Under the pieces are notes generated by a model. The model was not told where the DNA came from. It did no database searches and saw only the letters and a list, made by a program, of their open reading frames with translations. The position numbers and the translations under genes were made by a program. Shown here in pieces: positions 16,705-58,930 of a stretch of 64,000 nt of DNA. Numbering within the stretch: the stretch's first letter is position 1; the number at the start of each line of letters is the position of its first letter. The stretch lies in contig DKRQ01000019.1 of the NCBI GenBank assembly GCA_002472275.1, forward strand, positions 140,279 to 204,278, given 5' to 3'. This DNA comes from Bacillales bacterium UBA7278 (lineage in GTDB: Bacteria > Bacillota_I > Bacilli_A > RFN20 > CAG-826).

Positions 16705-16714
16705 GGAGTCAACC

Positions 16715-38046: not shown

Positions 38047-38133
38047 TACCTACTTAAAGTAGGATTGCCAAACCAAAGCGATTGCCCTATCATAACTACG
38101 CCAATCTAGAAACCAATTGGAGGAAAACTACTC

Positions 38134-44490: not shown

Positions 44491-45449
44491 TTCCTCCACG
44501 TCAAAACGGATGATTGCAGATAAATGGACACTAGTAGCGATAACCCCATCGCTAGAAGCATCGACGCTCCCGCGAGGGGATAGGTTAGGTTCATGAGGAA
44601 GAAGATGAGGACGATGAGGAACGGGGGCAAGAAGCGGTAGAGGCCCTTTTCCAGTAGGAAACGGTAGAAGACGCCCCACCTGGAGGAACCGCTTGTTATG
44701 AGCTGCCTCTTTTTCCTTTGGTCGTCTTTTAGGAAGACGAGCCCCACGGCGATGGGGGCGAGGAGGCACACGAGCACCCCGGCCGCAAAGCGGGGCCATG
44801 ATTCTTGGGCCGCTTTTTCGATTTCGACGTTTTTGAGGCGGATATTGCCCTCGATCTGCATGGGGCCGAAGGTGCCAAATTTCTTGGAGAAGCTAACGTA
44901 TCTAGGCTTCACGGAGCGGAGATATTCCTCCATATGCGCGTTGTGCCCGAGCAAGACGATGCCGTAATGCTCATGCTCAAAACCCTTCATCGCGGGGAGT
45001 TCCCCGACGATTTTGAAGGTTCCGTCGTCTTTGTCGTTGGTGAGTAAGGTGTCGCCAACTTTGAGTCTTCTCATCCCCATGACGTTTTTACTCACCATGG
45101 CTTCGCCCGGATTAAGCGAATTCATCGCGGAGACGTAGAAGGGCAACACCTCGGTATAGGTGAATCCAGGGAGCACCATGAGGATATCGGAGGAAAGAGA
45201 GTATTTGCCCGTCTTAACGATGCTTACTCCTGCAAAGTCCGCGAAGGCGTCTTTCTTCTCACCCGTAGAGGGATTTTCATAAGGCAAATCGGCGTAGACC
45301 TTCTCCTGGAATTCGCATTTGCGGAGGACGCTATATTGGTTAAGCGAAGCCGAAACGGGGCCAAAGGAATAAAGACAGAAAACCAATACCCCGAGCATGA
45401 TCAAAAGGGAGGGAAGGTAATCGTGGATGAACTTCCGGAAGAAGAGCAT
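44487..45449 (-). CDS. MacB/FtsX-type ABC permease-like membrane protein
   Basis: N-terminal TM helix, ~190-aa extracytoplasmic domain (GEAMVSKNVMGMRRLKVGDTLL as in MacB periplasmic domains), three C-terminal TM helices. Confidence 0.55.
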   Translation of the reverse strand: MLFFRKFIHDYLPSLLIMLGVLVFCLYSFGPVSASLNQYSVLRKCEFQEKVYADLPYENPSTGEKKDAFADFAGVSIVKTGKYSLSSDILMVLPGFTYTEVLPFYVSAMNSLNPGEAMVSKNVMGMRRLKVGDTLLTNDKDDGTFKIVGELPAMKGFEHEHYGIVLLGHNAHMEEYLRSVKPRYVSFSKKFGTFGPMQIEGNIRLKNVEIEKAAQESWPRFAAGVLVCLLAPIAVGLVFLKDDQRKKRQLITSGSSRWGVFYRFLLEKGLYRFLPPFLIVLIFFLMNLTYPLAGASMLLAMGLSLLVSIYLQSSVLTWRK

Positions 45450-46687: not shown

Positions 46688-46702
46688 ATCTATTCCCCCC
46701 GA

Positions 46703-47608
46703 TTAGATGGTCACTAGGACGGCGTTGGAATTCCCAGAATCCGTGAAGCCCGCCTTTTTGGAGCAAGCGGAAACGGTCACGGAATAGGGGCCGCCGTAGT
46801 AGTTGCGTTTTTCAAATTCTAGGGTGGAAATGGAGCACTCGTCATCCACGAGGGTTCCTTCTTCGGGGACGAACTGATATTCGGTGCCGTCGAGGTTCTT
46901 CATGGGAGCGCCGTCGATGTTGACTTTGTAGTAATCGGCGCCTTTGACGTGCTTCCAAGCGAGTTTGTTCTCGAAGCTGACCGTGGGCTTGAGGATGTTG
47001 TATTTGTCGACGATCATCGGGATGGTGCATCCGGAAGCGCCCGAGCCGATGACCTCGACTCCGGATTGGTCTTCGGGATAGAAATTCATCTTCATCGTGG
47101 ACTGACCGACGACGGAGGGAGTGATTTTGAAGACGATGCGTTGGGATTCCGTGACATCCGGTTCCGCGGGCACGCGGAAAGCCTGCTCGATCTTGTTCAT
47201 CTGCTTATTGGTGACGGGGTCGCGGTAGGGAATTGGGGTGCCGTCGGTGCCAGAGTCGGACTTCATCAAGAAGGCATCGAAGATCGTGATGGCCTCGAAT
47301 TCGAGAGCGGCTTTCAAAAGGAGATGGCCGCTGGTTTCGGCGCGGGAATAGTAGTCGAACTCGTAGACCAAATAGTATTGGTCAGCGATGCAAAGGCTCG
47401 CCAAATCGGCGTATTTGCTGTAATCGACAACTTCGTTAGGCTTTCCGGTGGAGACGATGAAACCGCGTTTGATCTTAGTCACGTTGACGGTGGTGGTCAG
47501 CTCGATGGAACGGGTGCCGGTGGAGAGTCCGCCGATATGGCTAGATTCACCTCCACAGGAGGCGAGACAGGCGACGATGGCCGGAATCAGAATGAGTTTC
47601 TTCTTCAT
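46703..47608 (-). CDS. Lipoprotein with a C-terminal FN3/Ig-like module
   Basis: Lipobox ACLASCGG. PTVSFENKLAWKHVKGADYYKVNIDGA resembles the repeats of the upstream 621-aa protein. Confidence 0.55.
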   Translation of the reverse strand: MKKKLILIPAIVACLASCGGESSHIGGLSTGTRSIELTTTVNVTKIKRGFIVSTGKPNEVVDYSKYADLASLCIADQYYLVYEFDYYSRAETSGHLLLKAALEFEAITIFDAFLMKSDSGTDGTPIPYRDPVTNKQMNKIEQAFRVPAEPDVTESQRIVFKITPSVVGQSTMKMNFYPEDQSGVEVIGSGASGCTIPMIVDKYNILKPTVSFENKLAWKHVKGADYYKVNIDGAPMKNLDGTEYQFVPEEGTLVDDECSISTLEFEKRNYYGGPYSVTVSACSKKAGFTDSGNSNAVLVTI

Positions 47609-47620
47609 AAAGATTGCTCC

Positions 47621-49486
47621 TTAGTAGTCTAACCCTAGGGTTTCGTAGGTCCTTTCGAAGACTTTGATGGTGGATTCGGGGTCGGTTGAATAAGTGACCT
47701 CTTCGATCGTGAATTCGATGCGATTCGCTTCACGGAAGGTTAGCGGGCGTAGGCCTGGAGTAACCCCATCGCGATAAACTGTCCAGTCGGCGTAGGTTTG
47801 TGTATTCACGTGATCGGAGTAAATCCATTTGACCTCGACCTTGGCGTTGATGTTCCTGTTCACGCCAGGAATGGAGTGATGGAGGACAAAATGGGCGAGT
47901 TTTTGGCCGCTTTCCTTGTCAATTGAGGTGCTCGGTTCATCCCAAGAAATGTTCGGAATGAGGAAGGTGACACGGTTAGAATCCGCGGAACGGAGAATGT
48001 CGTTGCCATTGCCGAGGTTGACGGTCCTCACCGCGTATTGGCCCGCGGCGAATCCATTGAGAGTAGTCTCGGAAAGATCCGTCAAATCCGTCCTCTTTTG
48101 GTCGTTAATGTAAATCGTGAAAGAAGAAGGATCGGCATTATCGAACGTGAAACTCTTGCCATCAAAGGAGATGGTGGGAGCACCGAGTTTGGTGAGTGTT
48201 ACCTCGTTGGAGAACTCCGAGGAAATCTGATTGGTGTTGCCAACGGCCTTGGCGGTAACCTTGTGGGCACCGACCGCGGTGATACCGTTAAGATTGGCGT
48301 CCCATTCGGCTCCGTCTAGATAGTATTGGACCGAATTCTCGCTGCTGACGTTGCTCGCATGGAGGACTCCTTCGGAAATGGAGATGAGGGGGCTATCGAG
48401 TTTGGTCAAAACCAAAGGCGCGGACATCGCGGAATCGATTTCTCCCGCGTTTCTCGCCGCGTTTTTGGCGGTGATGCTGTAGCTGCCGACTTCGGTGATG
48501 GTCTTCACGTCGCCGGTGAACTCAACGCCATCGCGATACCATATGAGGTTTTCGCCATCCGCGGCGGTGAGCGCTCCATTGACCAAGGAAAGCTTGGGAG
48601 TGGGCATCCTGCGGATTTCGGCTTCCACGGGGGTGGCGTAATCGACTTCGGCGTTAGGCCCAATGGTGCGGATGGAAATGTTATAGACGCCAGGGTTAGT
48701 GGTGTCGAAGGCGATTTCGGGTGCGGTCGGGGAGAATGTGGAGCCGTTGATGCGGACATCATATCCAGAAGCATCGGTCGCGGCGGTCCATTTGAATTTG
48801 CCGTCGGTGGCGTCGTAATGGATGTCGGAGACGCCCGGCATCTTCCTTAGTTTCACCGCGGCGGATTCGTCGCTGGGGGAGTAGGCGGAGACGCCGTTGC
48901 TGCCCTTTTTGTCGCTTCCCGCGATGACGTAGGTCTCGAATTGGCTGAAGAAGGCGATCGAGTTGAAATCGTAGGTGGTGGTTTCGGTGTTGTAGTTGGT
49001 GATGGCCGCCTTGGTCTCGGGGTTGCGGAGATAAACGGTGTAGAAAGTGGCATTCTCGATGGGCTCCCAGTTCAAAACGCCGGTAGTGAAGTTGAATTTG
49101 GGGGCAGGGGTGAGGAGTTTTTTCGGGGAAGTGGTGACCTTGATGACCTTTTTGAAGTTCAAATAAGTCAAGGTGACCTCTTGGGTGCCGACGTAAAGCG
49201 GGTCATAACCCGTCACGGTGAACTTGTCGCCGGAAATCCATTGTCCGACGGAATCGAAGGCGTTGCCGACGTGAATTTTGGCGTTGGATAAATCCAAGGT
49301 GCCGCCATAGACGATGGGGTATTCTTCCTGGAGTTCTTTGACTTCGGTGACCACGTTGGTTCCCATGTTGATAAGAACGGGGGCGGTGGCGCCACCGGCG
49401 ACGCCCAAAGCAACGAGGGCGACGCTGCCGATCATGATGGATTGGGCCAGTTTGAGCCTGGCCACTGCGCGAAGCATGTGTGCCAT
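47621..49486 (-). CDS. Membrane-anchored surface protein with multiple FN3/Ig-like repeats
   Basis: N-terminal TM anchor (IMIGSVALVALGVAGG). Repeats such as PAPKFNFTTGVLNWEPIENATFYTVYL and VSDIHYDATDGKFKWTAATDASGYDVRI. Confidence 0.55.
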   Translation of the reverse strand: MAHMLRAVARLKLAQSIMIGSVALVALGVAGGATAPVLINMGTNVVTEVKELQEEYPIVYGGTLDLSNAKIHVGNAFDSVGQWISGDKFTVTGYDPLYVGTQEVTLTYLNFKKVIKVTTSPKKLLTPAPKFNFTTGVLNWEPIENATFYTVYLRNPETKAAITNYNTETTTYDFNSIAFFSQFETYVIAGSDKKGSNGVSAYSPSDESAAVKLRKMPGVSDIHYDATDGKFKWTAATDASGYDVRINGSTFSPTAPEIAFDTTNPGVYNISIRTIGPNAEVDYATPVEAEIRRMPTPKLSLVNGALTAADGENLIWYRDGVEFTGDVKTITEVGSYSITAKNAARNAGEIDSAMSAPLVLTKLDSPLISISEGVLHASNVSSENSVQYYLDGAEWDANLNGITAVGAHKVTAKAVGNTNQISSEFSNEVTLTKLGAPTISFDGKSFTFDNADPSSFTIYINDQKRTDLTDLSETTLNGFAAGQYAVRTVNLGNGNDILRSADSNRVTFLIPNISWDEPSTSIDKESGQKLAHFVLHHSIPGVNRNINAKVEVKWIYSDHVNTQTYADWTVYRDGVTPGLRPLTFREANRIEFTIEEVTYSTDPESTIKVFERTYETLGLDY

Positions 49487-50319
49487 TATTTCTGACTCCT
49501 TTCCAGGCGTTTGCTAAAGCCCTTATAGGCTTTGTTGAGAACCTTGATGTGCTTGCGTTTCCTGCGGCTGAAGATGAGGGTCTTCAGGGGATAGACGCTC
49601 GTGACGAAATCCTCGTCGTTGAGGGTGTCGTTGATGAAGGCGACGTAGAACTTCAATTGTTCATCGGTCTTCGCGGTCTTCATGAGGAATTCGGCAAATT
49701 CATAGAAGGCCACTTCGTCATAGTTGCCGAACTTGTCGGAAAGGGATTGCTTGATCTTCGAAACGGAAAGCAAGGTGGTTAGGTCGCCGCCTTTTCCGGA
49801 AACGGAGAAATAGTTCTGATAAAGCTGGCCCCAGAAATGGGGATTGATGGCGTCGCATTCCTTGATGTCCGCCACGATTTGGGCAACGGTGTCGAAGTCG
49901 CCGAAAAGCGAACGGCAGAAGACGACGCGGAGGACGACCTCGGCCAAGCGGTTCCAGGTTTTGCCTTTGTTCGGATATGCGCCGAGTTCACCGGCAAGAC
50001 CTTGAATCTCGATCTTGATGGTGCTCGCGGATTGCTGATCGATGGATTGGATTTCGGCTTCCAGGTTGACCGGGAATGCCTTATTGAGTTCGTTGGCGGC
50101 CTCTAATAGATCTTGATCGGTGCCGGCATTTTTGACGGCCTTATGGATGGCTTTCCATTGGTCCTCACTAGGCAAAACGATGAGGGAACTTTCGTCCTCA
50201 CCTTGGCTTAGCACAATGCTTCCGCAGAACTTGCACTTATAGCGGCCGAGCGACTCTTTGACCAAGCCAGAGCTCTCGCCGCAATGGGGGCATTTGAGCG
50301 CCTGAAGTTCGATTGCCAT
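49486..50319 (-). CDS. Cytoplasmic zinc-ribbon protein, first gene of the divergent operon
   Basis: RBS aggagg before ATG 50319. MAIELQALKCPHCGESSGLVKESLGRYKCKFCGS (CxxC-x15-CxxC). The rest is helical with no recognised domain. Confidence 0.5.
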   Translation of the reverse strand: MAIELQALKCPHCGESSGLVKESLGRYKCKFCGSIVLSQGEDESSLIVLPSEDQWKAIHKAVKNAGTDQDLLEAANELNKAFPVNLEAEIQSIDQQSASTIKIEIQGLAGELGAYPNKGKTWNRLAEVVLRVVFCRSLFGDFDTVAQIVADIKECDAINPHFWGQLYQNYFSVSGKGGDLTTLLSVSKIKQSLSDKFGNYDEVAFYEFAEFLMKTAKTDEQLKFYVAFINDTLNDEDFVTSVYPLKTLIFSRRKRKHIKVLNKAYKGFSKRLERSQK

Positions 50320-50552
50320 GCTCTTCCTCCTTGGGTAGTGGCAGGGGGAGTGAGTGCTCAAAACACTATTTTCCCCCGTTCCTATGGAACATCTTATTAC
50401 ACGAGACTCTTTTATTCTATAAAAAAATACCCAGTTCCAATTCGAATGCGGAAACCATACATTTTTGCAAAGATTTTTCACATTTTTGAGGTGTGAGGAA
50501 TCTCACAAAAACCCTGCAAAAACCCCATATTTTTTGGAACTAAAACCCATAA

Positions 50553-50591: not shown

Positions 50592-50640
50592 GATGCCCAA
50601 AGGGCAGGAAACGAAAAAATCTCGATATATGGAAACCGCA

Positions 50641-50649
50641 TGTTATAAT
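50641..50649 (+). promoter_or_regulatory. Extended -10 promoter element (TGtTATAAT) for the ESCRT-III/Vps4-like operon
   Basis: TG-n-TATAAT lies 48 nt upstream of ATG 50697. RBS aaggggga at 50681-50688. Confidence 0.6.
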
Positions 50650-50696: not shown

Positions 50697-51644
50697 ATGT
50701 CACTATTCACTGATAAGGTCGACTTAGGGATGGCGGATTCCCGCGAACACTTGATTGAGAAGTATGTTTTCGACGTCAAGAAAGGAACCATCCAAATCCA
50801 CGTCAAACCCGGCTATGAAGCCATCATCAACGGCTACGACAAAATCGGGCCGAACCAAACCAACACCTACAACAAGAAGACGATCGGCACCACGCTCACT
50901 GCTTTCGTCTACCAGAAGGGCAGCATCGCCAAGCCGATCATCGTTCCCTTCTTCGCCGGTCAGCACACCATTTCGCTAGACGCCCATAAGACCGCCAAGG
51001 CCACGTTCGCCCTTGTCGGCACGGCCAAGATCGAGATCGATGACTACAAGGCGCTTGCTCGTTATTTCGACAGCACCGTGACCTATGCCGATGTCGAGAA
51101 AGAACTCCACGAGAACTTCAAGGACGCGTTCTCAATCCACATGACCGCAGCCGCGAAAACCTATATCTCTTCTTCCTCCACCGATGTCTCGATCCACTCG
51201 GATCTCAAAAACATCGCCAAGGCCGGTATCCAGGGCTCTTCCCTCCAGAACACCCTCATCGACATGGGCATGTCCCTTATGTCTTCCGGCATCAGCCTGA
51301 GGCTCAACCCGGTCGGCAACTCCGAGGAGATCATCGCCGCCATCAACGCCAAATTCAACGAAGCCGCCTTCGATGAATTCGACGAGGCCAAAGCCGATAA
51401 GCAGCGTCAAAGGGAAATCGAAGACAAGAAGTTGGACTACCAGCACGAAATCGACGTCATCAACGCTCAGAACACCGATACCCAGAACCGCAACAACAGC
51501 TATGCCTACTCGGGCAATGTCCCAAAGTATCCTCACGGCGCTCCCGCCGCCCCCGATACCGGCAAGAGGTTCTGCTCGCATTGCGGCAGGGAACTCGCCC
51601 CCCGCGACGAATATTGCCCGTCCTGTGGCACCAAGACCCGCTAA
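50697..51644 (+). CDS. SPFH/band-7-like (YdjI-type) protein with a C-terminal zinc ribbon
   Basis: MSLFTDK N-terminus. Beta-rich then helical SPFH-like layout. Coiled segment KADKQRQREIEDKKLDYQHEID. C-terminal CSHCG-x9-CPSCG. Internal acidic AAFDEFDE motif. Confidence 0.45.
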   Translation: MSLFTDKVDLGMADSREHLIEKYVFDVKKGTIQIHVKPGYEAIINGYDKIGPNQTNTYNKKTIGTTLTAFVYQKGSIAKPIIVPFFAGQHTISLDAHKTAKATFALVGTAKIEIDDYKALARYFDSTVTYADVEKELHENFKDAFSIHMTAAAKTYISSSSTDVSIHSDLKNIAKAGIQGSSLQNTLIDMGMSLMSSGISLRLNPVGNSEEIIAAINAKFNEAAFDEFDEAKADKQRQREIEDKKLDYQHEIDVINAQNTDTQNRNNSYAYSGNVPKYPHGAPAAPDTGKRFCSHCGRELAPRDEYCPSCGTKTR

Positions 51645-51669
51645 TCACCACCGATAAGGAGAATCAACA

Positions 51670-52635
51670 ATGGGACTTTTCAAAAGCAAAGAGCAGAAGG
51701 CCGCTGAGGCCGCTGCAAAGCAGAGGCAGCAGCAGCAAGCCGCCATCAACAAGGGTCTACAAGACAGCATGACCCCGAAAGACGATGTTACCCCCTACGC
51801 CAACGAAAAAAAGCGCAGGCAGGAAGAGCAAGCCGCGGCCCAGCACCAAGAAGCCAACCGCGACGAGATCGACGAAATCCTCAGGAACCTCTCCAGGGAA
51901 ATCTCGCTGAGCTTCCCCGACGCCGAAGACGACGCCCAGGAAATCCGCGACCTTTCCGTCAGGGTCAGGAGGATGAACCTTGGCAAGAACCAAGGTGCCA
52001 CCGACGCCATCATGACCTTCATCCGCGCCAAAGCGCAGGACATGATCGTCAAGGCCCACGCCGGCAACTACGCCGCCATCATCGGCTTCTTCGAAGAGCT
52101 TAGGAGCCTCATTAACGACGCGGAGAATCCACAAAAGGCCAAACTTATGGCCGATCCCGCCTACGTCAAGCGTCGTATCCGCGTCGCCGAGCTTTCCGCC
52201 CTCAAGGAAGACCTCCAAGGCCAGAAACAGGCTTTGTATCGCCAACGCGACAAACTCAAATCCAGGATGGAAGCCGGCCTCATTGACCAACGTGAAGCCG
52301 TCTCCAGGGTCGGCGACATCCGCGCTCAAGTCGAAGACTTGGAACGTTCCCTCCAGAACGCCCAGAGCGATTTGAGGGATGCCCAGACCGTCCTCACCGA
52401 GCAGGAGACCCAGATCCGCAACTCCGCGAAAGCCAAGGCCGAGGACATCAACGACTACACCGCGATCGCCGACCAGAAGGCCGACGCCGAGGCGCTTTCC
52501 TCCGAGAAAAACGACGTCATGTCGCAGATCCGTCAGAACAGCACCGATGTTTCGATGGATGACATGCATATGCATGCCAGCACCGGCAAGACCGAACTCA
52601 GCCAAGAACAGGTCGACAACGCCTTCGACTTCTAA
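51670..52635 (+). CDS. Long coiled-coil protein, possible PspA/ESCRT-III-superfamily member or adaptor
   Basis: MGLFKSKEQK N-terminus. Heptad-rich helices over 321 aa. C-terminal acidic peptide ELSQEQVDNAFDF. Confidence 0.35.
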   Translation: MGLFKSKEQKAAEAAAKQRQQQQAAINKGLQDSMTPKDDVTPYANEKKRRQEEQAAAQHQEANRDEIDEILRNLSREISLSFPDAEDDAQEIRDLSVRVRRMNLGKNQGATDAIMTFIRAKAQDMIVKAHAGNYAAIIGFFEELRSLINDAENPQKAKLMADPAYVKRRIRVAELSALKEDLQGQKQALYRQRDKLKSRMEAGLIDQREAVSRVGDIRAQVEDLERSLQNAQSDLRDAQTVLTEQETQIRNSAKAKAEDINDYTAIADQKADAEALSSEKNDVMSQIRQNSTDVSMDDMHMHASTGKTELSQEQVDNAFDF

Positions 52636-52649
52636 GGAGAGAGACGAAC

Positions 52650-53228
52650 ATGTTTGGTAAGAAACCCGCTCAGATGCCTAACCGCACCGACATCAACCTC
52701 AAGTTTTCGTCGAGCCTGCGCCAGTTGAAGCGCTCCATCGACCAGCTCGACCAAAAGATCGAGGCCGAAGTGGCCGCCGCGATTTCCTATAGGAAATCCG
52801 GCAACATCGACGAGGAACATCGTTCCCTCGCCAAGATCCAACGCTACCTCGCCCAGAAGATCCAAAAGGAACGTTTCTATGACAGCGTCGAAGGCGTCAA
52901 AGCCAAAATCGACGATATCCTCGACAAAGTCGAGGTTTCCCGCAACCTCTCCGAGACCTTGGGCAGCATCGGCCAACTCGTCGATTCCAAGGAACTCAAA
53001 TCCATCGTCGGCGAACTCGACACGTTCAACAAGAACTTCGCCAAGACCAACAACATGATGGACGCCTTCATGGGCTCGATGGACGCAACCGTCGGCGAAA
53101 TGAGCGTCGATCCTAGCCTCACCGCCTCCGTTCAGGCGATGGTCGGCGAAAGAATGAAGGGGTACGAGACTCGCATTGAGGAGCAGGCCGAGGCCGACCT
53201 CGATGAGAGCGCGTTCAATTTTCAATAA
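52650..53228 (+). CDS. ESCRT-III (Snf7/CHMP)-like protein 1
   Basis: 192 aa. MFGKKP N-terminus. Basic alpha1-alpha2 hairpin (LRQLKRSIDQLDQKIEAEVAAAISYRKSGNIDEEHRSLAKIQRYLAQKIQ). LSETLGSIGQLV...IVGELDTFNKNF...MMDAFMGSMD parallels CHMP alpha3-alpha5. Acidic tail EEQAEADLDESAFNFQ. Confidence 0.6.
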   Translation: MFGKKPAQMPNRTDINLKFSSSLRQLKRSIDQLDQKIEAEVAAAISYRKSGNIDEEHRSLAKIQRYLAQKIQKERFYDSVEGVKAKIDDILDKVEVSRNLSETLGSIGQLVDSKELKSIVGELDTFNKNFAKTNNMMDAFMGSMDATVGEMSVDPSLTASVQAMVGERMKGYETRIEEQAEADLDESAFNFQ

Positions 53229-54505
53229 TGGAAAGCATCAACTCCGTCAAAAACCGTTTCTTAGCCGAGAAGAAAGAGGCGGAATACCGCCTCACAGTCA
53301 AGGACTACCAAGGGGCCATGCCTCATCTAGAGAAGGCCGCCGAACTCCTTGGCGAGGTTTATCGTCGCGACATTAACGTGCAAAGGCGCGAGCAGTATAA
53401 GCGTATCCGCGAAGAACTTCGCGACAAATACGACGAGTGCAAGCAGGAACTAGGCATGGCGCCTTCCTCCTCTTCCAAGCCCCGTCAGAGCACCCAGCGT
53501 CCCGCTGGCCCCCGTCCCGCCGCTGGCGGTGCCTCCCAAGCCAAGGGCGGCGCGCCCGCAAAAGGCGGCGACCAGAAGGGCAAAGGCAAGCAAGCCGAGG
53601 AAGACGATGGCATCAACTACGTCGTCAACGGCATCGACCTGAAGCAATTCCTCGCTTCCGAATCCCGTGAGAAAGATGTCATGTTCGACGACGTCATCGG
53701 CATGGAGAGGGAGAAGCGCACGGTCAAAGGCGAACTGTTCCTCTCAGAGGAAGAGAAAGCCTACAAAGCCCAAATCGGCCTCAAGAACAAGAACTTCATC
53801 CTCCTCTATGGTCTTCCCGGCACCGGTAAGACCTACTTCGCGATGGCCCTTTCCAATGAGCTCCGCGAATTCTCGGGCGAGGACATCCCGTTCTTCTCCG
53901 TCGTGTGCACGCATTTGAAATCGTCCCACGTCGGCCAAACCGAGAACAACATCATCGCCCTCTTCGAGTTCACGAAGCAGTTCGACCGTTGCGTCCTCTT
54001 CATGGACGAATTCGACGCGATCGGTCAATCCAGACAGAAGAACTCGGGCGACCCGACCGCCGTCACGGTTGTCAACACGTTGCTCACCCAACTCGGTGGC
54101 TTCGATTCCAACCCGAACCTCCTCTTCATCGCCGCGACCAACTGCCCCTATAACCTAGACGGTGCGTTGCTCTCCCGCGCCTCCCCCAAGATCGAGGTGC
54201 CTCTTCCCGGCGCCGAGGTCCTCTATGGGACTCTTAAGAGGAAGTTAGGGGATCTAGTCGCCCCCGACGTCGACCTCTCCGCGGTGGCCAACAGGCTTGC
54301 CAAAAGCAAGTTCTCCAACCGCGACGCCTCCAACCTGATCGACGAAATCAAGAGGAAGCTATTCGAAGCCCATAGGGCGGACGATATGATCGACAAAGTC
54401 GATACCTCGATGATCACCACCGCGCTGAAGGAGGTTAAGTCCTCCGTCAAGCGCGATGAGGAAATCGCCTTGGAGGAATTCAAGGCGCAATTTGCAGAAA
54501 ACTGA
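53228..54505 (+). CDS. Vps4-like MIT-linker-AAA+ ATPase, paralog 1 (degenerate arginine-finger region)
   Basis: Helical N-domain (KDYQGAMPHLEKAAELLGEVY). G/P/K/A-rich linker. Walker A GLPGTGKT, Walker B LFMDEFD, sensor-1 AATNCPYNLD. The SRH region reads LLSRASPKIEV. Confidence 0.6.
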   Translation: MESINSVKNRFLAEKKEAEYRLTVKDYQGAMPHLEKAAELLGEVYRRDINVQRREQYKRIREELRDKYDECKQELGMAPSSSSKPRQSTQRPAGPRPAAGGASQAKGGAPAKGGDQKGKGKQAEEDDGINYVVNGIDLKQFLASESREKDVMFDDVIGMEREKRTVKGELFLSEEEKAYKAQIGLKNKNFILLYGLPGTGKTYFAMALSNELREFSGEDIPFFSVVCTHLKSSHVGQTENNIIALFEFTKQFDRCVLFMDEFDAIGQSRQKNSGDPTAVTVVNTLLTQLGGFDSNPNLLFIAATNCPYNLDGALLSRASPKIEVPLPGAEVLYGTLKRKLGDLVAPDVDLSAVANRLAKSKFSNRDASNLIDEIKRKLFEAHRADDMIDKVDTSMITTALKEVKSSVKRDEEIALEEFKAQFAEN

Positions 54506-54526
54506 TATCAATAAGGAGATATAACC

Positions 54527-55114
54527 ATGAACGACATCAAACGCCGCATGAAGATGATGGAAGAGAAGCAGCAAGCCAAAGACATCATCAAGCAATTCGA
54601 TTCCGTCATCGTCAATTTGGACAATGGCATCGCCAAGTGCCGCGAGAAGGCCAAGGAAGCCTTGGTCAAGCGCAACGACATGGCCGGTTTCAAGATGTTC
54701 GGCCGTTCCATGAAGTACTACCAGAACATGAAGAACTCGATCGAGGCCATCAAGTGCCAGTTCGAGAACTACCTGATCCAAGTCGAGGTCGCCAACACCT
54801 TCGTCGGTTTGAAGGACGTCCTTGGCAAAACCGCCAAGATGATGGACTCCATGCCCTCTTTGCAGAAGAACAACCGCGACTTCATGAAGTTCAAGAAGTC
54901 CATCATGAAAGGCCAGCTCTCCATGGATTCCATCAACTCCATGATGAGCAACCTGGATCCCTCCGCGGATTCCGAACTCACCCCCGCCGAACTCGACAGC
55001 CTCAAGGACGAGATCCTCATGACCTCCGGCGCGAGCCAGACCACGATCGGCGCGACCGAAGGCGACAAGGCCTCCCAGTCCTCGGGCGACTTCTTCTCCG
55101 AACTCGACATCTAA
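54527..55114 (+). CDS. ESCRT-III (Snf7/CHMP)-like protein 2
   Basis: 195 aa. KAKEALVKRNDMAGFKMFGRSMKYYQNMKNSIEAIKCQFEN...GLKDVLGKTAKMMDSM...MKFKKSIMKG...MDSINSMMSNL. Acidic tail GDFFSELDI. Confidence 0.55.
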   Translation: MNDIKRRMKMMEEKQQAKDIIKQFDSVIVNLDNGIAKCREKAKEALVKRNDMAGFKMFGRSMKYYQNMKNSIEAIKCQFENYLIQVEVANTFVGLKDVLGKTAKMMDSMPSLQKNNRDFMKFKKSIMKGQLSMDSINSMMSNLDPSADSELTPAELDSLKDEILMTSGASQTTIGATEGDKASQSSGDFFSELDI

Positions 55115-55123
55115 TCCAAAACC

Positions 55124-56308
55124 ATGGCCTTTGATTACCCGGGGAAAAATAGAGCCTACGAAGCGGCCCTTCAAAGAACGAAGGAATGCCTTTCTAACGG
55201 CGACGTCGAAAACGGCACCCTCTACCTAGACAAAGCGATTACCCTGTCCGCCGAGCTCGCCGCAAACGCGGCGATCCCGGAGTTTCAGGCGCGCTTCAAA
55301 AAGGAGAACGCCCAGCTCCTCAAAATCAAGGGCATGCTCGGCAAGGGCGAGAACCCCTTCCGGAAGAAAGCCACCGTTTCTAACGGAGACGGGGCAAAAG
55401 GAGGGGATGGCAAAGCCCAAAAGCCCGAGGAAGGGGAAAACGTCAGCGGCTTCTTCTCCACGGAGATCCCGACGACCACCCTCGCCGACGTCGCGGGCCT
55501 AGAGGAGGTCAAGGAGCAGATTCGCATCAACGTCTTGCTCCCTCTAAAGGACCCCGAGGTTTTCTATAACTATAAAAAGGACGCAGGTGCGCGAATCATC
55601 ATGTACGGCCCGCCGGGATGTGGCAAAAGCTTCGTCGCCGAAGCGATCGCCGGCGAGCTCAAGTGCCATTACGCGGTCATCACCTCCGACCAAATCCTCG
55701 ACAAGTATGTAGGCGTCGCCTCCAAAAGGATCAAGGCCGTCTTCGACGAAGCCGAGAAATACGACAACGTCCTTCTCTTCTTCGACGAAATCGACGCGCT
55801 TTGCGCTTCCCGCGACTCCGACGATTCCGCTCACACGAAGGACATTTTGACGACCTTCCTCACCTGCATGTCGGGTTTCAAACCCAAAGACAAATCCTTG
55901 AAGGTCATCATCGGCGCGACCAACAGGCCGTGGGCGATCGACTCCGCTTTGGTCCGTGGCCAGCGTTTGGACACCGCGATCTACGTCCGCCTGCCCGACC
56001 GCAAGGCCAGGGAATTCTTCGTGAAGAAGGAGTGGGAGAAGTTCGCCAACATCTACGAAGGCAGCGACCTCACGATGGATTACGCGATCGACGCCCTCGA
56101 TGGGTTCTCCGGCGCGGATATCAAGACGATCCTCGACCAAGCAAAGACCAAGACATTGACCCGTGTTTTGCAGGACAATTTGCCAAAAGGGCAATATTAC
56201 AAGGTGTCCAAGGCGGATTTCGACTCCGCTTTGGCGGCCCACCATAACCCCGTCACCGCCGAAATGCTACTTAGATACGAAGCCTTCGGGAAAGGAATGA
56301 CCGAATGA
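55124..56308 (+). CDS. Vps4-like MIT-linker-AAA+ ATPase, paralog 2
   Basis: Helical N-domain (LSNGDVENGTLYLDKAITLSAELA). G/K-rich linker. Walker A GPPGCGKS, pore loop KYVG, Walker B LLFFDEID, sensor-1 GATNRPWAID (compare Vps4 GATNIPWQLD). Confidence 0.65.
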   Translation: MAFDYPGKNRAYEAALQRTKECLSNGDVENGTLYLDKAITLSAELAANAAIPEFQARFKKENAQLLKIKGMLGKGENPFRKKATVSNGDGAKGGDGKAQKPEEGENVSGFFSTEIPTTTLADVAGLEEVKEQIRINVLLPLKDPEVFYNYKKDAGARIIMYGPPGCGKSFVAEAIAGELKCHYAVITSDQILDKYVGVASKRIKAVFDEAEKYDNVLLFFDEIDALCASRDSDDSAHTKDILTTFLTCMSGFKPKDKSLKVIIGATNRPWAIDSALVRGQRLDTAIYVRLPDRKAREFFVKKEWEKFANIYEGSDLTMDYAIDALDGFSGADIKTILDQAKTKTLTRVLQDNLPKGQYYKVSKADFDSALAAHHNPVTAEMLLRYEAFGKGMTE

Positions 56309-57876
56309 TCAACAACGCAGACATCCTCCGCGAAGCCAAAGCCGCGATCGTCCGTGGCGATTACCGCACCGCGACCAAGCACATCGAAAAACTGATGACC
56401 CTTCTCAAGTTCGACTTTGAGAACGGCATCGACCGTGAGAAGAATGGCAGGGCCTTCAACGCCCTGGCCAAAGTCAGGAGGGAACTGATTGCCGGAAGTC
56501 TCAGCGAGTCTTCCTATGCCCTTTTGAAGATCCCTTCCCCGAAGCCGAAATACGAGGCCCCCTCCGCGCCGAAGCCCGCGGCCCCCAAAGAGGATCCCTT
56601 CGCCGGCTATAATCCCGACGCGAAGCCGATCGGCGGAAAACCTGCTCCCGCGCCAAAACCAGAACCCAAGCCGGAGCCCAAGGACGAAGAACCCGAAAAG
56701 CTCTCCCCCGAGGACGCCGCGCTTGCAGCCAAACCCGAAACCCAGTTCCACTGGGATGAGATCCCGACCGTCACCTTTGAGGACATCGCGGGCCTAGACG
56801 AATGCAAAGCCCTCGTCGAAAGGAAGGTTTTGCTTCCCTTGCTCCACCCCGAGATGCTAGAAGGCTACGTCGCCGGCGGCGGCGGAGGCGTTTGCCTCTA
56901 TGGCCCTCCGGGCACCGGCAAAACCATGATCTCCGCGGCCATCGCCAACAGGATCAACGCTAAATTCTGCTCCATCACCCCCTCCGATTTGCTTCAGCAG
57001 GGGTTAGGCAACACCGAGAAGGCCGTCAAAGCCCTCTTTGCGGAAGCCCGTTCCTATCCCTGCGCGGTCATCTATTTCGACGAAATGGACTCAATCGCCC
57101 CGAAGAACACCAAATCGACCGCGGCCAGGCAACTTCGTTCCGAGTTCCTCGCCCAACTTCAAGGCGTTTCTAGCTATGGCAAGAAGAGCAAGAACATCCT
57201 CTTCCTCATCTGCGCGACCAACAAACCATGGGATATCGATTCCGCCTTCTTACGTCCGGGCCGTTTCGGCACGAAGATCTACGTCGGCTTGCCCGATGAC
57301 GCGGCGAGGCGTTACATCATCACCCACCGTTTGGACAAGATCAAATCCAAGCGCACCGTCGAGATCAGGCCCGACATCGACATCGACATGATCGTCGAGA
57401 AGACGAACGGCTTCAACTGCGCCGACGTCTCGAACTTCCTCAATTCCGTCGAGGAGGTATCCCTTGTCCGTGCGATGAAGACCGGCGAGAAATACATCGC
57501 CAACCACGACTTTGTCCTCGTTCTTAAGAAAGCCGTCTCCTCCGTCCAGGCCGACGACATCATCAAACTCGATGCCTGGCGTAAGGAAAACGATGCGCCG
57601 ATTAGCTTCGATGACGACGAACTTGCCGGCAAACCCAAGGAAGAACCGGCCCCGACCGAACCCGCGGCACCCGCTCCTGAGCCAGCGCCTGCCCCTGCAC
57701 CCGCTCCGGCATCCGAGCCCGCCCCCGAACCTGCACCAGCACCCGAACCGGCCCCGGCACCTGAGCCTGCTCCAAGTGGAGAACCCGCCGCCCCGACGGA
57801 GGGCGATTCCTCATCTTCCGCGTTCGACGATTTCCTCTCCGGAATCGACGATTCGCTACCAAAAGACGGCGAATAA
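56305..57876 (+). CDS. Vps4-like MIT-linker-AAA+ ATPase, paralog 3, with a (PAPE)n tail
   Basis: Helical N-domain (IVRGDYRTATKHIEKLMTLL). P/K/A linker. Walker A GPPGTGKT, Walker B IYFDEMD, CATNKPWDID, canonical FLRPGRFG. C-terminal ~50-aa Pro/Ala/Glu repeat ending SSAFDDFLSGIDD. ATGA overlap with paralog 2. Confidence 0.65.
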   Translation: MINNADILREAKAAIVRGDYRTATKHIEKLMTLLKFDFENGIDREKNGRAFNALAKVRRELIAGSLSESSYALLKIPSPKPKYEAPSAPKPAAPKEDPFAGYNPDAKPIGGKPAPAPKPEPKPEPKDEEPEKLSPEDAALAAKPETQFHWDEIPTVTFEDIAGLDECKALVERKVLLPLLHPEMLEGYVAGGGGGVCLYGPPGTGKTMISAAIANRINAKFCSITPSDLLQQGLGNTEKAVKALFAEARSYPCAVIYFDEMDSIAPKNTKSTAARQLRSEFLAQLQGVSSYGKKSKNILFLICATNKPWDIDSAFLRPGRFGTKIYVGLPDDAARRYIITHRLDKIKSKRTVEIRPDIDIDMIVEKTNGFNCADVSNFLNSVEEVSLVRAMKTGEKYIANHDFVLVLKKAVSSVQADDIIKLDAWRKENDAPISFDDDELAGKPKEEPAPTEPAAPAPEPAPAPAPAPASEPAPEPAPAPEPAPAPEPAPSGEPAAPTEGDSSSSAFDDFLSGIDDSLPKDGE

Positions 57877-57941
57877 GCGGGAAATCGCCGCAAAACCATT
57901 AGATTTCCTAAATTGCGATACCCAAGAAAGGAGTAGCGATC

Positions 57942-58889
57942 ATGAAAGAAAAACCCGAAATCTGCCCCGTTTGCAAAGGAAGGCTCTTCCTCACCAATCG
58001 CGACGGGACCAAGACCTGCGCGAGCTGCGGTCATACCCTAGGCACCCCATCCGCGCATGGCGGACGTTCCGCTGCCGCCCCCGTCAGGCCCTCTCCCTCC
58101 AAGACGGAGAAGTGTCCTTCCTGTGGCTCCGTGGCCAACTACGTCAGTACCGACGCCGACGGCAAGGAGATCTACGCTTGCTCCTTCTGCGGCTCGAAGT
58201 TCACCCCTAAGCCGCGCGTCGAGGCCAAACCCAAAGAACCAGAACCCGAAAAACCCGCGGCCCCCCTCAAAGACGAGCTAGACGGCAGGGAAATCTTCGC
58301 CCTTGCCAAAGCCAATACGGTCGAGATCTTCTGCCGCAGTGGCTCCGGCGCCTCGGCGGGATCCGGCTTCTTCATCGCCGATAACTTCGTGATGACCAAC
58401 GCCCACGTCGTCTTCGATGACTTCGGCGGGGCAAACCCGACCCCGTCCTCCTACATCGCCGTTTGCTTCAAAGGAGGCAAGCAACATGGCGCGGAAATCC
58501 TCGCGGCCAACCTCGACGAGGACATGGCGATCCTAGCGACTGACCTCTCTTGCTCCGCCATCGCCGAAATCGCGAAGGAGATGCCCGAGACCGGCGAGAC
58601 CATCTACGCGGTCGGCAACTCTGCGGGACAAGGCATGTGCATCATGGAAGGACTCGTGGCCGACCAACTCCGCGAGATCGCCGACAACGACTACATGATG
58701 ATCTCCGCGAACATCGTCGGCGGCAACTCCGGCGGCCCGATCTTCAATAAGCACGGCAAAGTCGTCGGCATCGTCACCCTCGGTTCCAACGAGGCGGTCG
58801 CGATGAACTATGGCATCCCCGTTCCCCGCATCGAGAGATTCATCAAGTCGGTGGAACAAAAAGTCGGCAAGAAATTCGCCCGTAAGTAA
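57942..58889 (+). CDS. Double zinc-ribbon / trypsin-like (S1C, HtrA-type core, no PDZ) serine protease
   Basis: CPVCKG-x12-CASCGH and CPSCGS-x16-CSFCGS. Triad contexts MTNAHVV, DMAILA, GNSGGPIFN. Confidence 0.7.
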   Translation: MKEKPEICPVCKGRLFLTNRDGTKTCASCGHTLGTPSAHGGRSAAAPVRPSPSKTEKCPSCGSVANYVSTDADGKEIYACSFCGSKFTPKPRVEAKPKEPEPEKPAAPLKDELDGREIFALAKANTVEIFCRSGSGASAGSGFFIADNFVMTNAHVVFDDFGGANPTPSSYIAVCFKGGKQHGAEILAANLDEDMAILATDLSCSAIAEIAKEMPETGETIYAVGNSAGQGMCIMEGLVADQLREIADNDYMMISANIVGGNSGGPIFNKHGKVVGIVTLGSNEAVAMNYGIPVPRIERFIKSVEQKVGKKFARK

Positions 58890-58900
58890 ACAAGGAATGA

Positions 58901-58930
58901 ACCGGTAGGGGCTCCCTATCGGTTTTTCTT
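58901..58930 (+). terminator. Rho-independent terminator after the protease gene
   Basis: accggtagg / loop ggctc / cctatcggt, followed by ttttctt. Confidence 0.7.

What the first reader, a model, noticed from the sequence alone, without database searches (positions are those of the whole stretch)
53228..57876. Three Vps4-like paralogs with systematically different pore loops and arginine fingers (possible hetero-hexamer with inactive subunits)
All three keep the Walker A and B motifs (GLPGTGKT/LFMDEFD, GPPGCGKS/LLFFDEID, GPPGTGKT/IYFDEMD) but differ at functional hot spots. At the pore-loop-1 position (Vps4 K-W-M-G) they read S-H-V-G (paralog 1), K-Y-V-G (paralog 2) and Q-G-L-G (paralog 3, no aromatic residue). 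The second region of homology reads LLSRASPKIEV (paralog 1, Arg fingers largely lost), LVRGQRLDTAIYV (paralog 2) and FLRPGRFGTKIYV (paralog 3, canonical). Only paralog 2 therefore combines an aromatic pore loop with partial Arg fingers. Paralog 3 has canonical fingers but a non-aromatic pore loop. Paralog 1 looks catalytically compromised in trans. This complementary degeneration is what one expects for an obligate mixed ring or for regulator/adaptor pseudo-ATPases. Paralog 3 also carries a ~50-residue (P-A-P-E)n tail (about 57640-57800).
Basis: partly seen in the sequence, partly recalled or inferred. Interest (0 to 1): 0.7.

Follow-up and report, generated by a model that had tools for sequence, protein, structure and literature searches.

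The report
Bacterial ESCRT-III-like operon with three ATPases
The three ATPase genes are real and differ as described, but they are ancient, individually conserved parts of an eight-gene membrane-remodelling operon in gut Firmicutes that resembles the archaeal/eukaryotic ESCRT-III/Vps4 machinery, which recent reviews say bacteria lack.

Summary
Three single-cassette AAA ATPases (P1 53228-54505, P2 55124-56308, P3 56305-57876) keep Walker A/B and sensor 1. Their pore-loop-1 residues are S-H-V-G, K-Y-V-G and Q-G-L-G. One point is wrong: P2 keeps both arginine fingers (R-G-Q-R), so it is fully canonical. Only P1 lacks one finger (S-R).

These deviations are not decay. They are fixed across about 100 P1 orthologues and more than 120 P3-type cassettes.

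The genes sit in an eight-gene operon conserved in Erysipelotrichaceae, Acholeplasmatales and Clostridia MAGs. It encodes an SPFH-like zinc-ribbon protein, a helical protein, two ESCRT-III-like proteins interleaved with the ATPases, and a trypsin-like protease.

A three-way mixed ring is unlikely. The ATPases are no closer to each other than to yeast Vps4 or p97. In many genomes P3 is replaced by a RuvB-family motor carrying the same N-terminal domain. The P3-type cassette also occurs as the second ring of tandem AAA proteins.

Best reading: a bacterial ESCRT-III/Vps4-like system. P2 is the translocase, and P1 and P3 are specialised partners, each targeted through its own MIT-like N-domain. 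I found no description of this module in the searchable literature.

The parts
50622..50649 (+). promoter-like site (TCGATA-16-TATAAT with TG extension) upstream of the first gene
   Evidence: This is a consensus match only. Overall, 4 promoter-like sites were found against 3.9 expected, so it is weak on its own, but the position fits the start of the operon.
50697..51644 (+). G1: SPFH/Band-7-like domain + coiled coil + C-terminal zinc ribbon (315 aa)
   Evidence: Zn_Ribbon_1 E 1.3e-6. The profile of 8 orthologues aligns to Band_7_1-positive relatives from sister systems at hhalign probability 98%, E 1.5e-13 over 238 columns. Those relatives hit Band_7_1 down to 1.2e-18.
51670..52635 (+). G2: 321-aa helical protein with a conserved N-terminal MGLF-x-x-KKK motif and an acidic-aromatic C-terminal tail (..AFDF)
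   Evidence: No Pfam hit. Orthologue alignment A9. No hhalign link to SnfA or SnfB. Fold unresolved.
52650..53228 (+). SnfA: ESCRT-III-like protein (192 aa); its stop codon overlaps the P1 start (TAATG)
   Evidence: Pfam Snf7 E 5.6e-5, profile positions 4-134 of 171, below the gathering score. 5 of 9 orthologues hit Snf7 as the top family. hhalign to SnfB: probability 66%, E 5.5e-5. Gene junction.
53228..54505 (+). P1: MIT-like three-helix N-domain + linker + classical AAA cassette. Pore loop S-H-V-G; single Arg finger (S316-R317).
   Evidence: AF2 pLDDT 87.8, with helices 4-23, 27-47 and 51-74 at pLDDT 93-98. Foldseek best hits are p97, Cdc48, NVL and AFG2.
54527..55114 (+). SnfB: ESCRT-III-like protein (195 aa) with an invariant C-terminal D-F-F tail motif
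55124..56308 (+). P2: canonical member. Helical N-domain with an invariant NPF, AAA cassette with pore loop K-Y-V-G and both Arg fingers (R-G-Q-R). Its stop overlaps the P3 start (ATGA).
56305..57876 (+). P3: helical N-domain + linker + 'P3-type' AAA cassette (pore loop Q-G-L-G, fingers R-P-G-R) + PAPE linker + acidic-aromatic tail (SSAFDDFLSGIDD)
57640..57805 (+). Pro/Ala/Glu low-complexity linker inside P3, variable in length between strains
57942..58889 (+). G8: two N-terminal zinc ribbons + trypsin-like (HtrA/DegP-type) serine protease. A trypsin-like protease is present in 8 of the 13 related loci checked; where it is absent the contig ends at the module edge or was not fully sampled.
   Evidence: Trypsin_2 E 1.9e-24. 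Orthologues or paralogues appear in L002, L003, L007, L167-L170 and L171-L173.
58899..58925 (+). terminator-like hairpin (12-bp stem) directly after the protease gene; likely operon end
   Evidence: consensus scan only

Best explanation
The three genes are the ATPase components of an eight-gene chromosomal operon (50697-58889) of an uncultured Erysipelotrichaceae bacterium. The operon encodes a bacterial counterpart of the ESCRT-III/Vps4 membrane-remodelling machinery.

Two small ESCRT-III-fold proteins (SnfA, SnfB), and probably the helical protein G2, are inferred to polymerise at the inner face of the membrane. An SPFH-like zinc-ribbon protein (G1) would organise them there. Each of these three proteins ends in a short acidic-aromatic tail.

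Each of the three ATPases has Vps4 architecture: a three-helix MIT-like N-domain, a flexible linker, one classical AAA cassette and a C-terminal helix. They are inferred to be recruited through their N-domains to such tails and to remodel or disassemble the polymer using ATP.

P2 has an aromatic pore loop and both Arg fingers, so it is the substrate-threading motor. P1 (non-aromatic pore loop, one Arg finger) and P3 (glycine at the aromatic position, intact fingers) are specialised ATPases kept by selection, not decaying copies.

P3 most likely acts as a partner or second-tier ring for a canonical motor. Its gene overlaps the end of P2, and the same cassette is the C-terminal ring of tandem AAA proteins in sister systems. 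P1 is coupled to SnfA.

Shown: sequence features, conservation, operon structure, fold predictions and gene-context variants. Inferred: polymerisation, tail-to-N-domain recognition, ring composition, and the biological role. That role is probably membrane repair or remodelling under envelope stress or phage attack, given the protease, TIR, TerD and LRR neighbours in sister loci.
For: Module conservation:
- The gene order is the same in L001, L002 and L007 (Erysipelotrichaceae), L005 (Acholeplasmatales), L003 and L004 (Clostridia MAG), and L006, L167, L169 and L170 (metagenome contigs of unnamed origin).

ATPase conservation:
- P1 family, 103 sequences: Walker A, Walker B D-E and sensor-1 N are invariant. 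The S-R of the SRH is 102/103 and 103/103. The pore-loop position is K74/H9/L8/A4/Y4.
- P2 family, 117 sequences: 'DKYVGE' and R-G-[KQ]-R are nearly invariant.
- P3 and P3-type cassettes: G at the aromatic position in 37/37 and 84/88, with RPGRFG kept.

ESCRT-III evidence:
- Snf7 is the top Pfam family for 9 of 18 SnfA/SnfB orthologues, with near full-length profile coverage.
- The AF2 model of SnfB gives CdvB, Asgard ESCRT-IIIB, CHMP2A-CHMP3, Snf7 and Loki CHMP4-7 as top Foldseek hits.

Other components:
- SPFH link for G1.
- P1 N-domain is a confident three-helix bundle with weak profile hits to the MIT domains of MITD1 and CdvC.
- The N-domains of P1, P2 and P3 are mutually related (hhalign 79-87%).
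- Conserved C-terminal tails on G2, SnfA and SnfB.

Coupling and fusions:
- Overlapping stop/start codons for SnfA-P1 and P2-P3.
- Rosetta-stone fusions: MIT + AAA (pore loop SKWVGESE) + P3-type cassette, and a helical N-region + P3-type cassette.
Against: - phmmer of SnfB against 1.84 billion representatives reaches only 13 relatives, none a recognised Snf7 or PspA.
- Pfam MIT is not detected in the N-domains of P1, P2 or P3.
- NCBIfam CdvC scores (82-161 bits) are far below its 650-bit cut-off and no better than CDC48, PAN or FtsH.
- G2 has no detectable relation to ESCRT-III.
- Nothing here tests oligomeric state, ATPase activity or membrane binding.
- A serine protease plus an SPFH protein could equally point to a proteolytic quality-control machine.
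Confidence: 0.55

Rival explanations
1. One reading: P1, P2 and P3 co-assemble into one obligate hetero-hexamer. Only some subunits grip substrate or activate hydrolysis, as in Rpt1-6, Pex1/Pex6 or Yta10/Yta12.
For: - The three genes are adjacent and co-transcribed, and P2 and P3 overlap by ATGA.
- P1 and P2 co-occur in every complete locus examined.
- P1 lacks one trans-acting arginine and an aromatic pore residue. P3 lacks the aromatic residue.
Against: - P2 is fully canonical, so there is no complementarity to explain.
- The three are only 27-32% identical, no closer to each other than to Vps4, VAT or p97.
- In L003, L006, L167, L169 and L170 the third ATPase is a true RuvB-family protein (RuvB_N 125-140 bits, AAA_lid_4, RuvB_C) whose N-domain is homologous to that of P3. 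A RuvB module is unlikely to fit into a classical AAA ring.
- P3-type cassettes work in single-ATPase and tandem architectures elsewhere.
- Each ATPase has its own targeting domain.
Confidence: 0.12
2. Split type-II AAA machine. P2 and P3 form two stacked rings, equivalent to D1 and D2 of Cdc48/p97 or NSF. P2 translocates, while P3 serves as the assembly or power ring without substrate-gripping aromatics. P1 is a separate SnfA-specific ATPase or a regulator.
For: - Sister systems encode one polypeptide with an MIT-like domain, a canonical AAA (pore loop SKWVG[DE]SE) and a P3-type cassette. Others have an MIT-like domain, a SpoVK-like AAA and a P3-type cassette.
- P2 and P3 are translationally coupled.
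- p97 D1 also lacks an aromatic pore-loop residue (K-L-A-G in the alignment).
Against: - D1 of the fused proteins is not specifically P2-like (35% to P2, 36% to P3).
- P3 has its own N-domain and linker, which a mere second ring would not need.
- P3 is replaced by a RuvB-type motor in many loci.
Confidence: 0.2
3. Proteolytic quality-control or defence machine analogous to HflK/C-FtsH or IetA-IetS. The AAA ATPases unfold membrane-associated substrates for the trypsin-like protease inside an SPFH microdomain. The small helical proteins are adaptors or substrates rather than ESCRT-III polymers.
For: - A trypsin-like protease and an SPFH-like protein accompany the ATPases in the window and in most related loci examined.
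- P1's best NCBIfam hit is FtsH_fam, and the IetA/IteA anti-phage ATPase models score 100-116 bits.
- Sister loci carry TIR_2, TerD, LRR_5 and Sel1 genes, which are typical of conflict systems.
Against: - The ATPase scores to FtsH and IetA are generic AAA scores far below the family cut-offs, and PADLOC finds no system-level match.
- HtrA-type proteases are not known to dock on AAA rings (my own knowledge).
- The Snf7 signal and the ESCRT-III fold hits are left unexplained.
Confidence: 0.13

Closest known systems
Vps4 / CdvC with ESCRT-III (Snf7, CdvB) of eukaryotes and archaea
   Same: - Architecture: N-terminal helical (MIT-like) domain, flexible linker, single classical AAA cassette, C-terminal helix.
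- The genes are interleaved with small ESCRT-III-fold genes that carry C-terminal tails.
- P2 has a Vps4-type pore loop and both Arg fingers.
- P3 is 41% identical to yeast Vps4 over 186 residues.
   Different: - The host is bacterial.
- There are three distinct ATPases instead of one.
- There is no beta-domain.
- P2 and P3 have the longer R-x-x-R SRH of Cdc48/PAN rather than Vps4's R-R.
- P1 and P3 lack the aromatic pore residue.
- The curated CdvC model cut-off is not reached, and the MIT Pfam model is not hit.
- Extra SPFH-like and trypsin-like partners are present.
Archaeal 'Meth_adaptin' ESCRT loci and bacterial PspA-YdjI loci (Makarova et al. 2024, PMC10936438)
   Same: An ESCRT-III-superfamily gene is linked to an SPFH protein. 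[quoted passage not shown]
   Different: - Those archaeal loci have one Vps4 plus adaptin-like proteins.
- B. subtilis PspA-YdjI has no Vps4-like ATPase.
- Here there are three ATPases and a protease.
Bacterial PspA/Snf7 + AAA+ associations listed by Ravi and colleagues (mSystems 2024, PMC11237479)
   Same: Precedent that some bacteria link PspA or divergent Snf7 genes with classical AAA ATPases, including a tandem protein with one inactive cassette.
   Different: - The described contexts are MIT+Vps4 with a TPR-6TM protein and no Snf7, or PspA / membrane-anchored Snf7 with one tandem AAA and ABC transporter genes.
- The eight-gene module with three separate ATPases, an SPFH-like zinc-ribbon protein and a trypsin-like protease is not among them, in the main text or in the supplement that I searched.
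Type-II AAA proteins (Cdc48/p97, NSF) and hetero-hexameric AAA rings (Rpt1-6, Pex1/Pex6, Yta10/Yta12, SPATA5/SPATA5L1)
   Same: Division of labour between AAA cassettes. One ring or subunit type lacks an aromatic pore loop or full catalytic residues. p97 D1 has K-L-A-G at the pore loop.
   Different: Here the cassettes are on separate polypeptides, each with its own targeting domain. One of them is exchangeable for a RuvB-type motor.
HflK/C-FtsH and IetA-IetS
   Same: SPFH protein plus classical AAA ATPase plus protease activity at the membrane, or AAA ATPase plus serine protease in phage defence.
   Different: No metalloprotease domain is fused to the ATPases. The protease is trypsin/HtrA-like, not subtilisin-like. 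Scores to the FtsH and IetA models are generic.

Membership tests
Vps4/CdvC (ESCRT-IV ATPase) | N-terminal MIT domain | tested here: inconclusive
   The P1 N-domain is a confident three-helix bundle. It gives weak profile hits to the MITD1 MIT domain (E 0.18), the CdvC MIT region (E 0.56) and TPR motifs. Pfam MIT is not hit by the N-domains of P1, P2 or P3; only 2 of 37 scanned N-termini matched it (best E 2.2e-4), and the output does not say which. The P2 and P3 N-domains are linked to P1's only by hhalign at 79-87%.
Vps4/CdvC (ESCRT-IV ATPase) | Single classical AAA cassette with Walker A, Walker B and sensor 1 | tested here: met
Vps4/CdvC (ESCRT-IV ATPase) | Aromatic pore loop 1 (K-W-M-G) | tested here: not met
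   Met by P2 only (K-Y-V-G). P1 has S-H-V-G (Lys in most orthologues). P3 has Q-G-L-G, with Gly fixed.
Vps4/CdvC (ESCRT-IV ATPase) | Two adjacent arginine fingers in the SRH (R288, R289) | tested here: inconclusive
   P2 and P3 have two arginines, but with the Cdc48/PAN spacing R-x-x-R. P1 has the Vps4 length but only the second arginine (S-R).
Vps4/CdvC (ESCRT-IV ATPase) | Beta-domain insertion in the small subdomain (Vta1 binding) | tested here: not met
   All three have a gap opposite Vps4 residues ~350-399. The AF2 model of P1 has no such strands.
Vps4/CdvC (ESCRT-IV ATPase) | C-terminal helix after the lid domain | tested here: met
   Aligned 'S-V-x-x-x-[DE]..[FW]' segment. P1 helix 409-423. 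Weak Vps4_C hits for P3 and its L005 orthologue.
Vps4/CdvC (ESCRT-IV ATPase) | Score above the curated family model (NCBIfam NF041006 CdvC, cut-off 650 bits) | tested here: not met
   81.7, 160.6 and 159.9 bits. The CDC48, PAN and FtsH models score similarly.
Vps4/CdvC (ESCRT-IV ATPase) | Genetic linkage to ESCRT-III genes | tested here: met
   SnfA and SnfB are interleaved with the ATPases in all complete loci.
ESCRT-III superfamily (Snf7 PF03357 / PspA) | Profile match above the Pfam gathering score | tested here: not met
   22.8 and 23.3 bits against a 27.3 cut-off. Even so, Snf7 is the top family for 9 of 18 orthologues, with near full-length coverage.
ESCRT-III superfamily (Snf7 PF03357 / PspA) | Fold: long alpha1-alpha2 hairpin followed by shorter helices and a flexible C-terminal tail | tested here: met
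ESCRT-III superfamily (Snf7 PF03357 / PspA) | Membrane-bound polymerisation | not testable with these tools
   Needs biochemistry or imaging.
Hetero-hexameric AAA ring | Strict co-inheritance of all subunit types | tested here: not met
   P1 and P2 always co-occur. P3 is present in only ~37 clusters and is replaced by a RuvB-family ATPase elsewhere.
Hetero-hexameric AAA ring | Physical co-assembly in one ring | not testable with these tools
   No multimer prediction or biochemistry was available.
SPFH/Band-7 (for G1) | Band_7 / Band_7_1 profile match | tested here: inconclusive
   The window protein and its close orthologues do not hit the Pfam models. Their profile does align at 98% probability to relatives that hit them.

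The most novel reading that the evidence does not exclude
Gut Firmicutes (Erysipelotrichaceae, Acholeplasmatales, Clostridia) possess a genuine ESCRT-III/Vps4-type membrane-remodelling machine. It has several ESCRT-III-like subunits, each served by its own MIT-like-domain ATPase, and the ATPases have divided the labour: one threads substrate and the others have altered pores. The machine is coupled to an SPFH scaffold and a protease, and it is used for membrane repair or abortive defence. ATP-driven ESCRT-III remodelling would then not be confined to archaea and eukaryotes.
Probability: 0.45. Interest if true: 0.85.

Novelty: new variant of a known kind. Interest (0 to 1): 0.72.

Why it matters
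A 2024 survey states that ESCRT components are not found in bacteria (PMC10936438). A 2025 review states that a Vps4-like ATPase 'appears absent in bacteria', which leaves open how bacterial ESCRT-III polymers are disassembled (PMC7619361).

A conserved bacterial operon that pairs ESCRT-III-fold proteins with Vps4-architecture ATPases would give that question a directly testable system. The three ATPases have naturally separated features: aromatic versus non-aromatic pore loops, and one versus two Arg fingers. The module is also a natural experiment in how AAA motors divide labour, and in how a motor cassette can be swapped (classical AAA versus RuvB-type) behind a constant targeting domain.

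The links to TIR, TerD, LRR and protease genes suggest a role in envelope stress or phage defence in abundant but uncultured gut and rumen bacteria.

Tried and rejected
- Metagenome scan with the P1 profile: only 3 true relatives among 80 loci; the rest were generic AAA genes.
- Viral-contig scan: no close relative (38% identity or less, AAA core only). The module is not evidently phage-borne.
- PADLOC: only generic IetA/TRIP13 ATPase and protease hits. No known defence system matched.
- Pfam MIT on 37 N-termini: only 2 hits (best E 2.2e-4), and none of P1, P2 or P3 hits MIT in whole-protein scans. A profile of the tandem-AAA relatives' N-termini against the PDB found nothing useful, and its hhalign links to the P1, P2 and P3 N-domains are weak (67%, 21%, 16%).
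- G2 against SnfA and SnfB by hhalign: no relation. Pfam on G2 orthologues and on the small helical proteins of sister loci: essentially nothing. My visual impression that those proteins look ESCRT-III-like, with MIM1-like ends, therefore remains unverified.
- phmmer of SnfB against 1.84 billion representatives: 13 hits, with no bridge to known Snf7 or PspA.
The AFDB library was unavailable.
- Foldseek of the P1 model only says 'classical AAA, Cdc48-like' and does not resolve the clade.
- I made no proper phylogeny against katanin, spastin, FtsH or PAN references, because verified reference sequences were not at hand. Clade placement is left open.
- Literature searches for this module found no description.

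Full report
**Observation.** The region holds three ORFs: 53228-54505 (P1, 425 aa), 55124-56308 (P2, 394 aa) and 56305-57876 (P3, 523 aa). Each matches Pfam AAA PF00004 at E 4e-31 to 5e-34.

I checked residue equivalence in two ways. The first was HMMER alignment to solved p97, Cdc48, VAT and Afg2 chains. The second was a MAFFT alignment with yeast Vps4, whose recalled sequence I first verified as identical to PDB 5uie_A over all 437 residues.

- Walker A, Walker B (D-E) and the sensor-1 Asn are present in all three.
- The Arg-finger reading needs correction. Vps4 R288/R289 (p97 R-P-G-R) align with P1 S316/R317, so one finger is kept. They align with P2 R-G-Q-R, so both are kept and P2 is not 'partial'. 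They align with P3 R-P-G-R.
- The Pro/Ala/Glu tail of P3 is real, and it varies in length between this window and a 95-99% identical metagenome contig.

**The locus.** The three genes lie in a run of eight same-strand genes. A promoter-like site sits at 50622-50649 and a strong terminator-like hairpin at 58899-58925. The genes are, in order:

- G1, with a zinc ribbon at its C-terminus
- G2, helical, with no Pfam hit
- SnfA, weak Snf7 hit
- P1
- SnfB, weak Snf7 hit
- P2
- P3
- G8, with two zinc ribbons plus a trypsin-like protease

The SnfA stop overlaps the P1 start (TAATG), and the P2 stop overlaps the P3 start (ATGA). Exact-sequence look-up places these proteins in Erysipelotrichaceae MAGs, where they are annotated only as 'AAA family ATPase' or 'ATP-binding protein'. 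The nearest loci in reference genomes are also uncultured Erysipelotrichaceae.

**Conservation.** The same gene order recurs in other Erysipelotrichaceae, an Acholeplasmatales MAG, a Clostridia MAG and several metagenome contigs of unnamed origin.

- In 103 P1 orthologues, Walker A, Walker B, sensor 1 and the single arginine are invariant. The preceding Ser is 102/103. The pore-loop position is Lys, His, Leu or Ala in 95 and Tyr in only 4.
- In 117 P2 orthologues, 'DKYVGE' and R-G-[KQ]-R are nearly invariant.
- In 37 P3 orthologues, the Gly at the aromatic position and RPGRFG are invariant.

The unusual residues are therefore fixed family traits under selection, not degeneration. P2 is an ordinary, complete AAA motor, so there is no complementary loss pattern to explain.

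**The three are not close paralogues.** Pairwise BLAST gives 27-32% identity (74-159 bits) among them. Against yeast Vps4 they score 91-139 bits, and against VAT, p97 or Afg2 cassettes 72-150 bits. NCBIfam's CdvC, CDC48, PAN and FtsH models all score similarly, far below their cut-offs. The P1 model's nearest structures are p97, Cdc48, NVL and AFG2. I could not resolve the clade.

**The third slot is exchangeable.** In L003, L006, L167 and L170, the gene after P2 is a true RuvB-family ATPase (RuvB_N 125-140 bits, AAA_lid_4, RuvB_C) with a ~135-residue N-extension. In L169 the RuvB-family gene lies upstream. In L168 it is fused to a TnsA-like domain. That N-extension is homologous to the N-domain of P3 (hhalign 95.8%, E 7.7e-9 over 81 columns). 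The same targeting domain therefore carries either a classical AAA or a RuvB-type motor.

Conversely, the P3-type cassette (57-67% identical, Gly fixed in 84 of 88) is widespread in Clostridia in other architectures:

- behind a ~200-300-residue helical region
- as the second cassette after an MIT-like domain plus a canonical AAA whose pore loop is SKWVG[DE]SE
- after an MIT-like domain plus a SpoVK-like AAA

Those genes sit in loci with Band_7_1 + zinc-ribbon proteins, small helical proteins, trypsin-like proteases, TIR_2-TPR/LRR proteins and TerD paralogues. These facts argue against an obligate three-way mixed ring. They favour separate or stacked assemblies.

**Partners.**

- Snf7 is the most frequent Pfam family among SnfA and SnfB orthologues (5/9 and 4/9; best E 1.9e-5 and 4.9e-6) with near full-length coverage, though always below the gathering score.
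- SnfA and SnfB profiles align to each other at 66% probability, E 5.5e-5.
- An AF2 model of SnfB (pLDDT 67) shows a long hairpin, shorter helices and a disordered tail ending in a short helix.
- Foldseek ranks CdvB, Asgard ESCRT-IIIB, CHMP2A-CHMP3, Snf7 and Loki CHMP4-7 at the top, with Vipp1, PspA and Ist1 further down.
- G1's profile aligns at 98% probability to Band_7_1-positive relatives. That gives an SPFH + coiled coil + zinc ribbon layout, the same as described for archaeal 'Meth_adaptin' ESCRT loci and reminiscent of B. subtilis YdjI next to PspA (PMC10936438).

**N-domains and tails.**

- The AF2 model of P1 (pLDDT 87.8) has a three-helix bundle at pLDDT 93-98, a disordered linker and the AAA domain.
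- Its profile gives only weak hits to the MIT domains of MITD1 and CdvC, plus TPR motifs.
- The N-domains of P1, P2 and P3 are related to one another.
- G2, SnfA and SnfB each end in a conserved acidic-aromatic peptide..FDF..F-x-[FL] and an invariant D-F-F respectively. P3 itself ends in SSAFDDFLSGIDD.
- Three tails and three N-domains suggest one-to-one recruitment, as with MIM-MIT pairs. This is inference only.

**Mechanism.** I propose that SnfA, SnfB and perhaps G2 form a membrane-bound polymer organised by G1, and that the ATPases are recruited by the tails.

- P2 threads and extracts subunits.
- P3 acts as a partner or second-tier ring. The support is gene overlap with P2, the tandem fusions, and p97 D1 as a precedent for a non-aromatic ring.
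- P1, coupled to SnfA, is a specialised ATPase with an altered pore, whose neighbour-activating finger is reduced.
- The protease, and in sister loci the TIR, TerD and LRR genes, point to an envelope-stress or anti-phage role.

The rivals are a three-way mixed ring, a strictly split type-II machine, and an HflK/C-FtsH-like or IetAS-like proteolytic system. None can be excluded without biochemistry.

**Comparison with what is known.**

- A 2025 review states that a Vps4-like ATPase appears absent in bacteria (PMC7619361).
- Makarova et al. 2024 state that ESCRT homologues are not identifiable in bacteria (PMC10936438).
- The mSystems 2024 survey lists bacterial MIT+Vps4 genes without Snf7, and PspA or membrane-anchored Snf7 with a tandem AAA protein. 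It does not list this module.
- Further searches found nothing.

I therefore rate it a new variant of a known kind. Membership in the Vps4/CdvC family proper is not established, because several defining features are unmet. The working analogy is well supported by architecture and context.

**Verdict.** The mixed-ring interpretation is mostly not supported. The underlying locus is more interesting than the finding suggested.

Noticed in passing
L003:13171-14739, L170:12948-14282, L167:15252-16709, L006:5531-6871, L169:5300-6751: In many related loci the third ATPase is a RuvB-family protein (RuvB_N, AAA_lid_4, RuvB_C winged helix). Its N-terminal ~80 residues are homologous to the N-domain of P3, so this is a motor-cassette swap behind a constant targeting domain.
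   Followed up: yes
L168:13117-15294: Here the RuvB-like third ATPase is fused to a TnsA-like endonuclease N-terminal domain (Pfam E 1.4e-6). An SNF2-type helicase gene lies downstream. This hints at a DNA-directed effector arm.
   Followed up: partly
L009:2879-5674: A P1-like protein (47% identical over the AAA part) is fused to a long C-terminal region that, by eye, resembles an FtsK/SpoIIIE-type ATPase (no domain scan was run). In this variant the pore loop reads D-K-F-V-G, so the aromatic residue is present.
   Followed up: partly
L002:11179-13344; proteins P0256, P0258: Some P3 orthologues carry a C-terminal LRR_5 (BspA-type leucine-rich repeat) extension in place of the PAPE tail. Separate LRR_5 genes flank the module in L005, L167 and L173.
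   Followed up: partly
L003:1-6616; L171:1829-6271 and 16175-17668; L172:4789-7368 and 10144-13017; L173:11060-15607: Sister loci sit next to four or five TerD paralogues, Ter-linked biosynthesis genes (ATPgrasp_Ter, PRTase_2/TRSP/PELOTA_1, C-C_Bond_Lyase) and large TIR_2-TPR/Sel1/LRR proteins. This suggests a stress or conflict context.
   Followed up: partly
proteins P0283, P0294, P0299 (L171:8001-9668): These proteins have a ~200-300-residue helical N-terminal region fused through a Pro/Ala-rich linker to a P3-type AAA cassette. The helical part looks similar to SnfB by eye, but Pfam finds nothing.
   Followed up: partly
window 55124-55380 (P2 residues 1-85): The P2 N-domain ends in an invariant Asn-Pro-Phe (N77-P78-F79 in alignment A5) across 17 diverse orthologues. 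Its function is unknown.
   Followed up: no
window 57640-57805 versus L007:5638-7248: The Pro/Ala/Glu linker of P3 differs by about 13 residues between this window and a 95-99% identical contig (523 vs 536 aa). It is a repeat-driven length polymorphism.
   Followed up: yes
window 58964-60400: An RDD-family membrane protein (478 aa) with a very acidic C-terminal tail lies just after the terminator-like hairpin. No orthologue was found next to the module in the other loci, so it is probably not part of the system.
   Followed up: partly
window 40047-50481 (minus strand): A divergently transcribed cluster of eight genes. It includes a Big_3 protein, an ABC-type ATPase, a 571-aa protein with a trypsin domain, a 331-aa protein with a CxxC...CxxC motif, and four proteins with no Pfam hit. 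Any relation to the operon is untested.
   Followed up: no
window 16715-24560 and 35944-39327: ORFs of 1264 and 1343 aa, and of 700 and 397 aa, have the sizes and order expected for rpoB-rpoC and fusA-tuf, which suggests a chromosomal core region. This was not verified with any search.
   Followed up: no
window 60498-61349: A DUF3990 protein (E 4.7e-26) with a weak sigma-70 region-4-like N-terminus lies downstream of the RDD gene.
   Followed up: no
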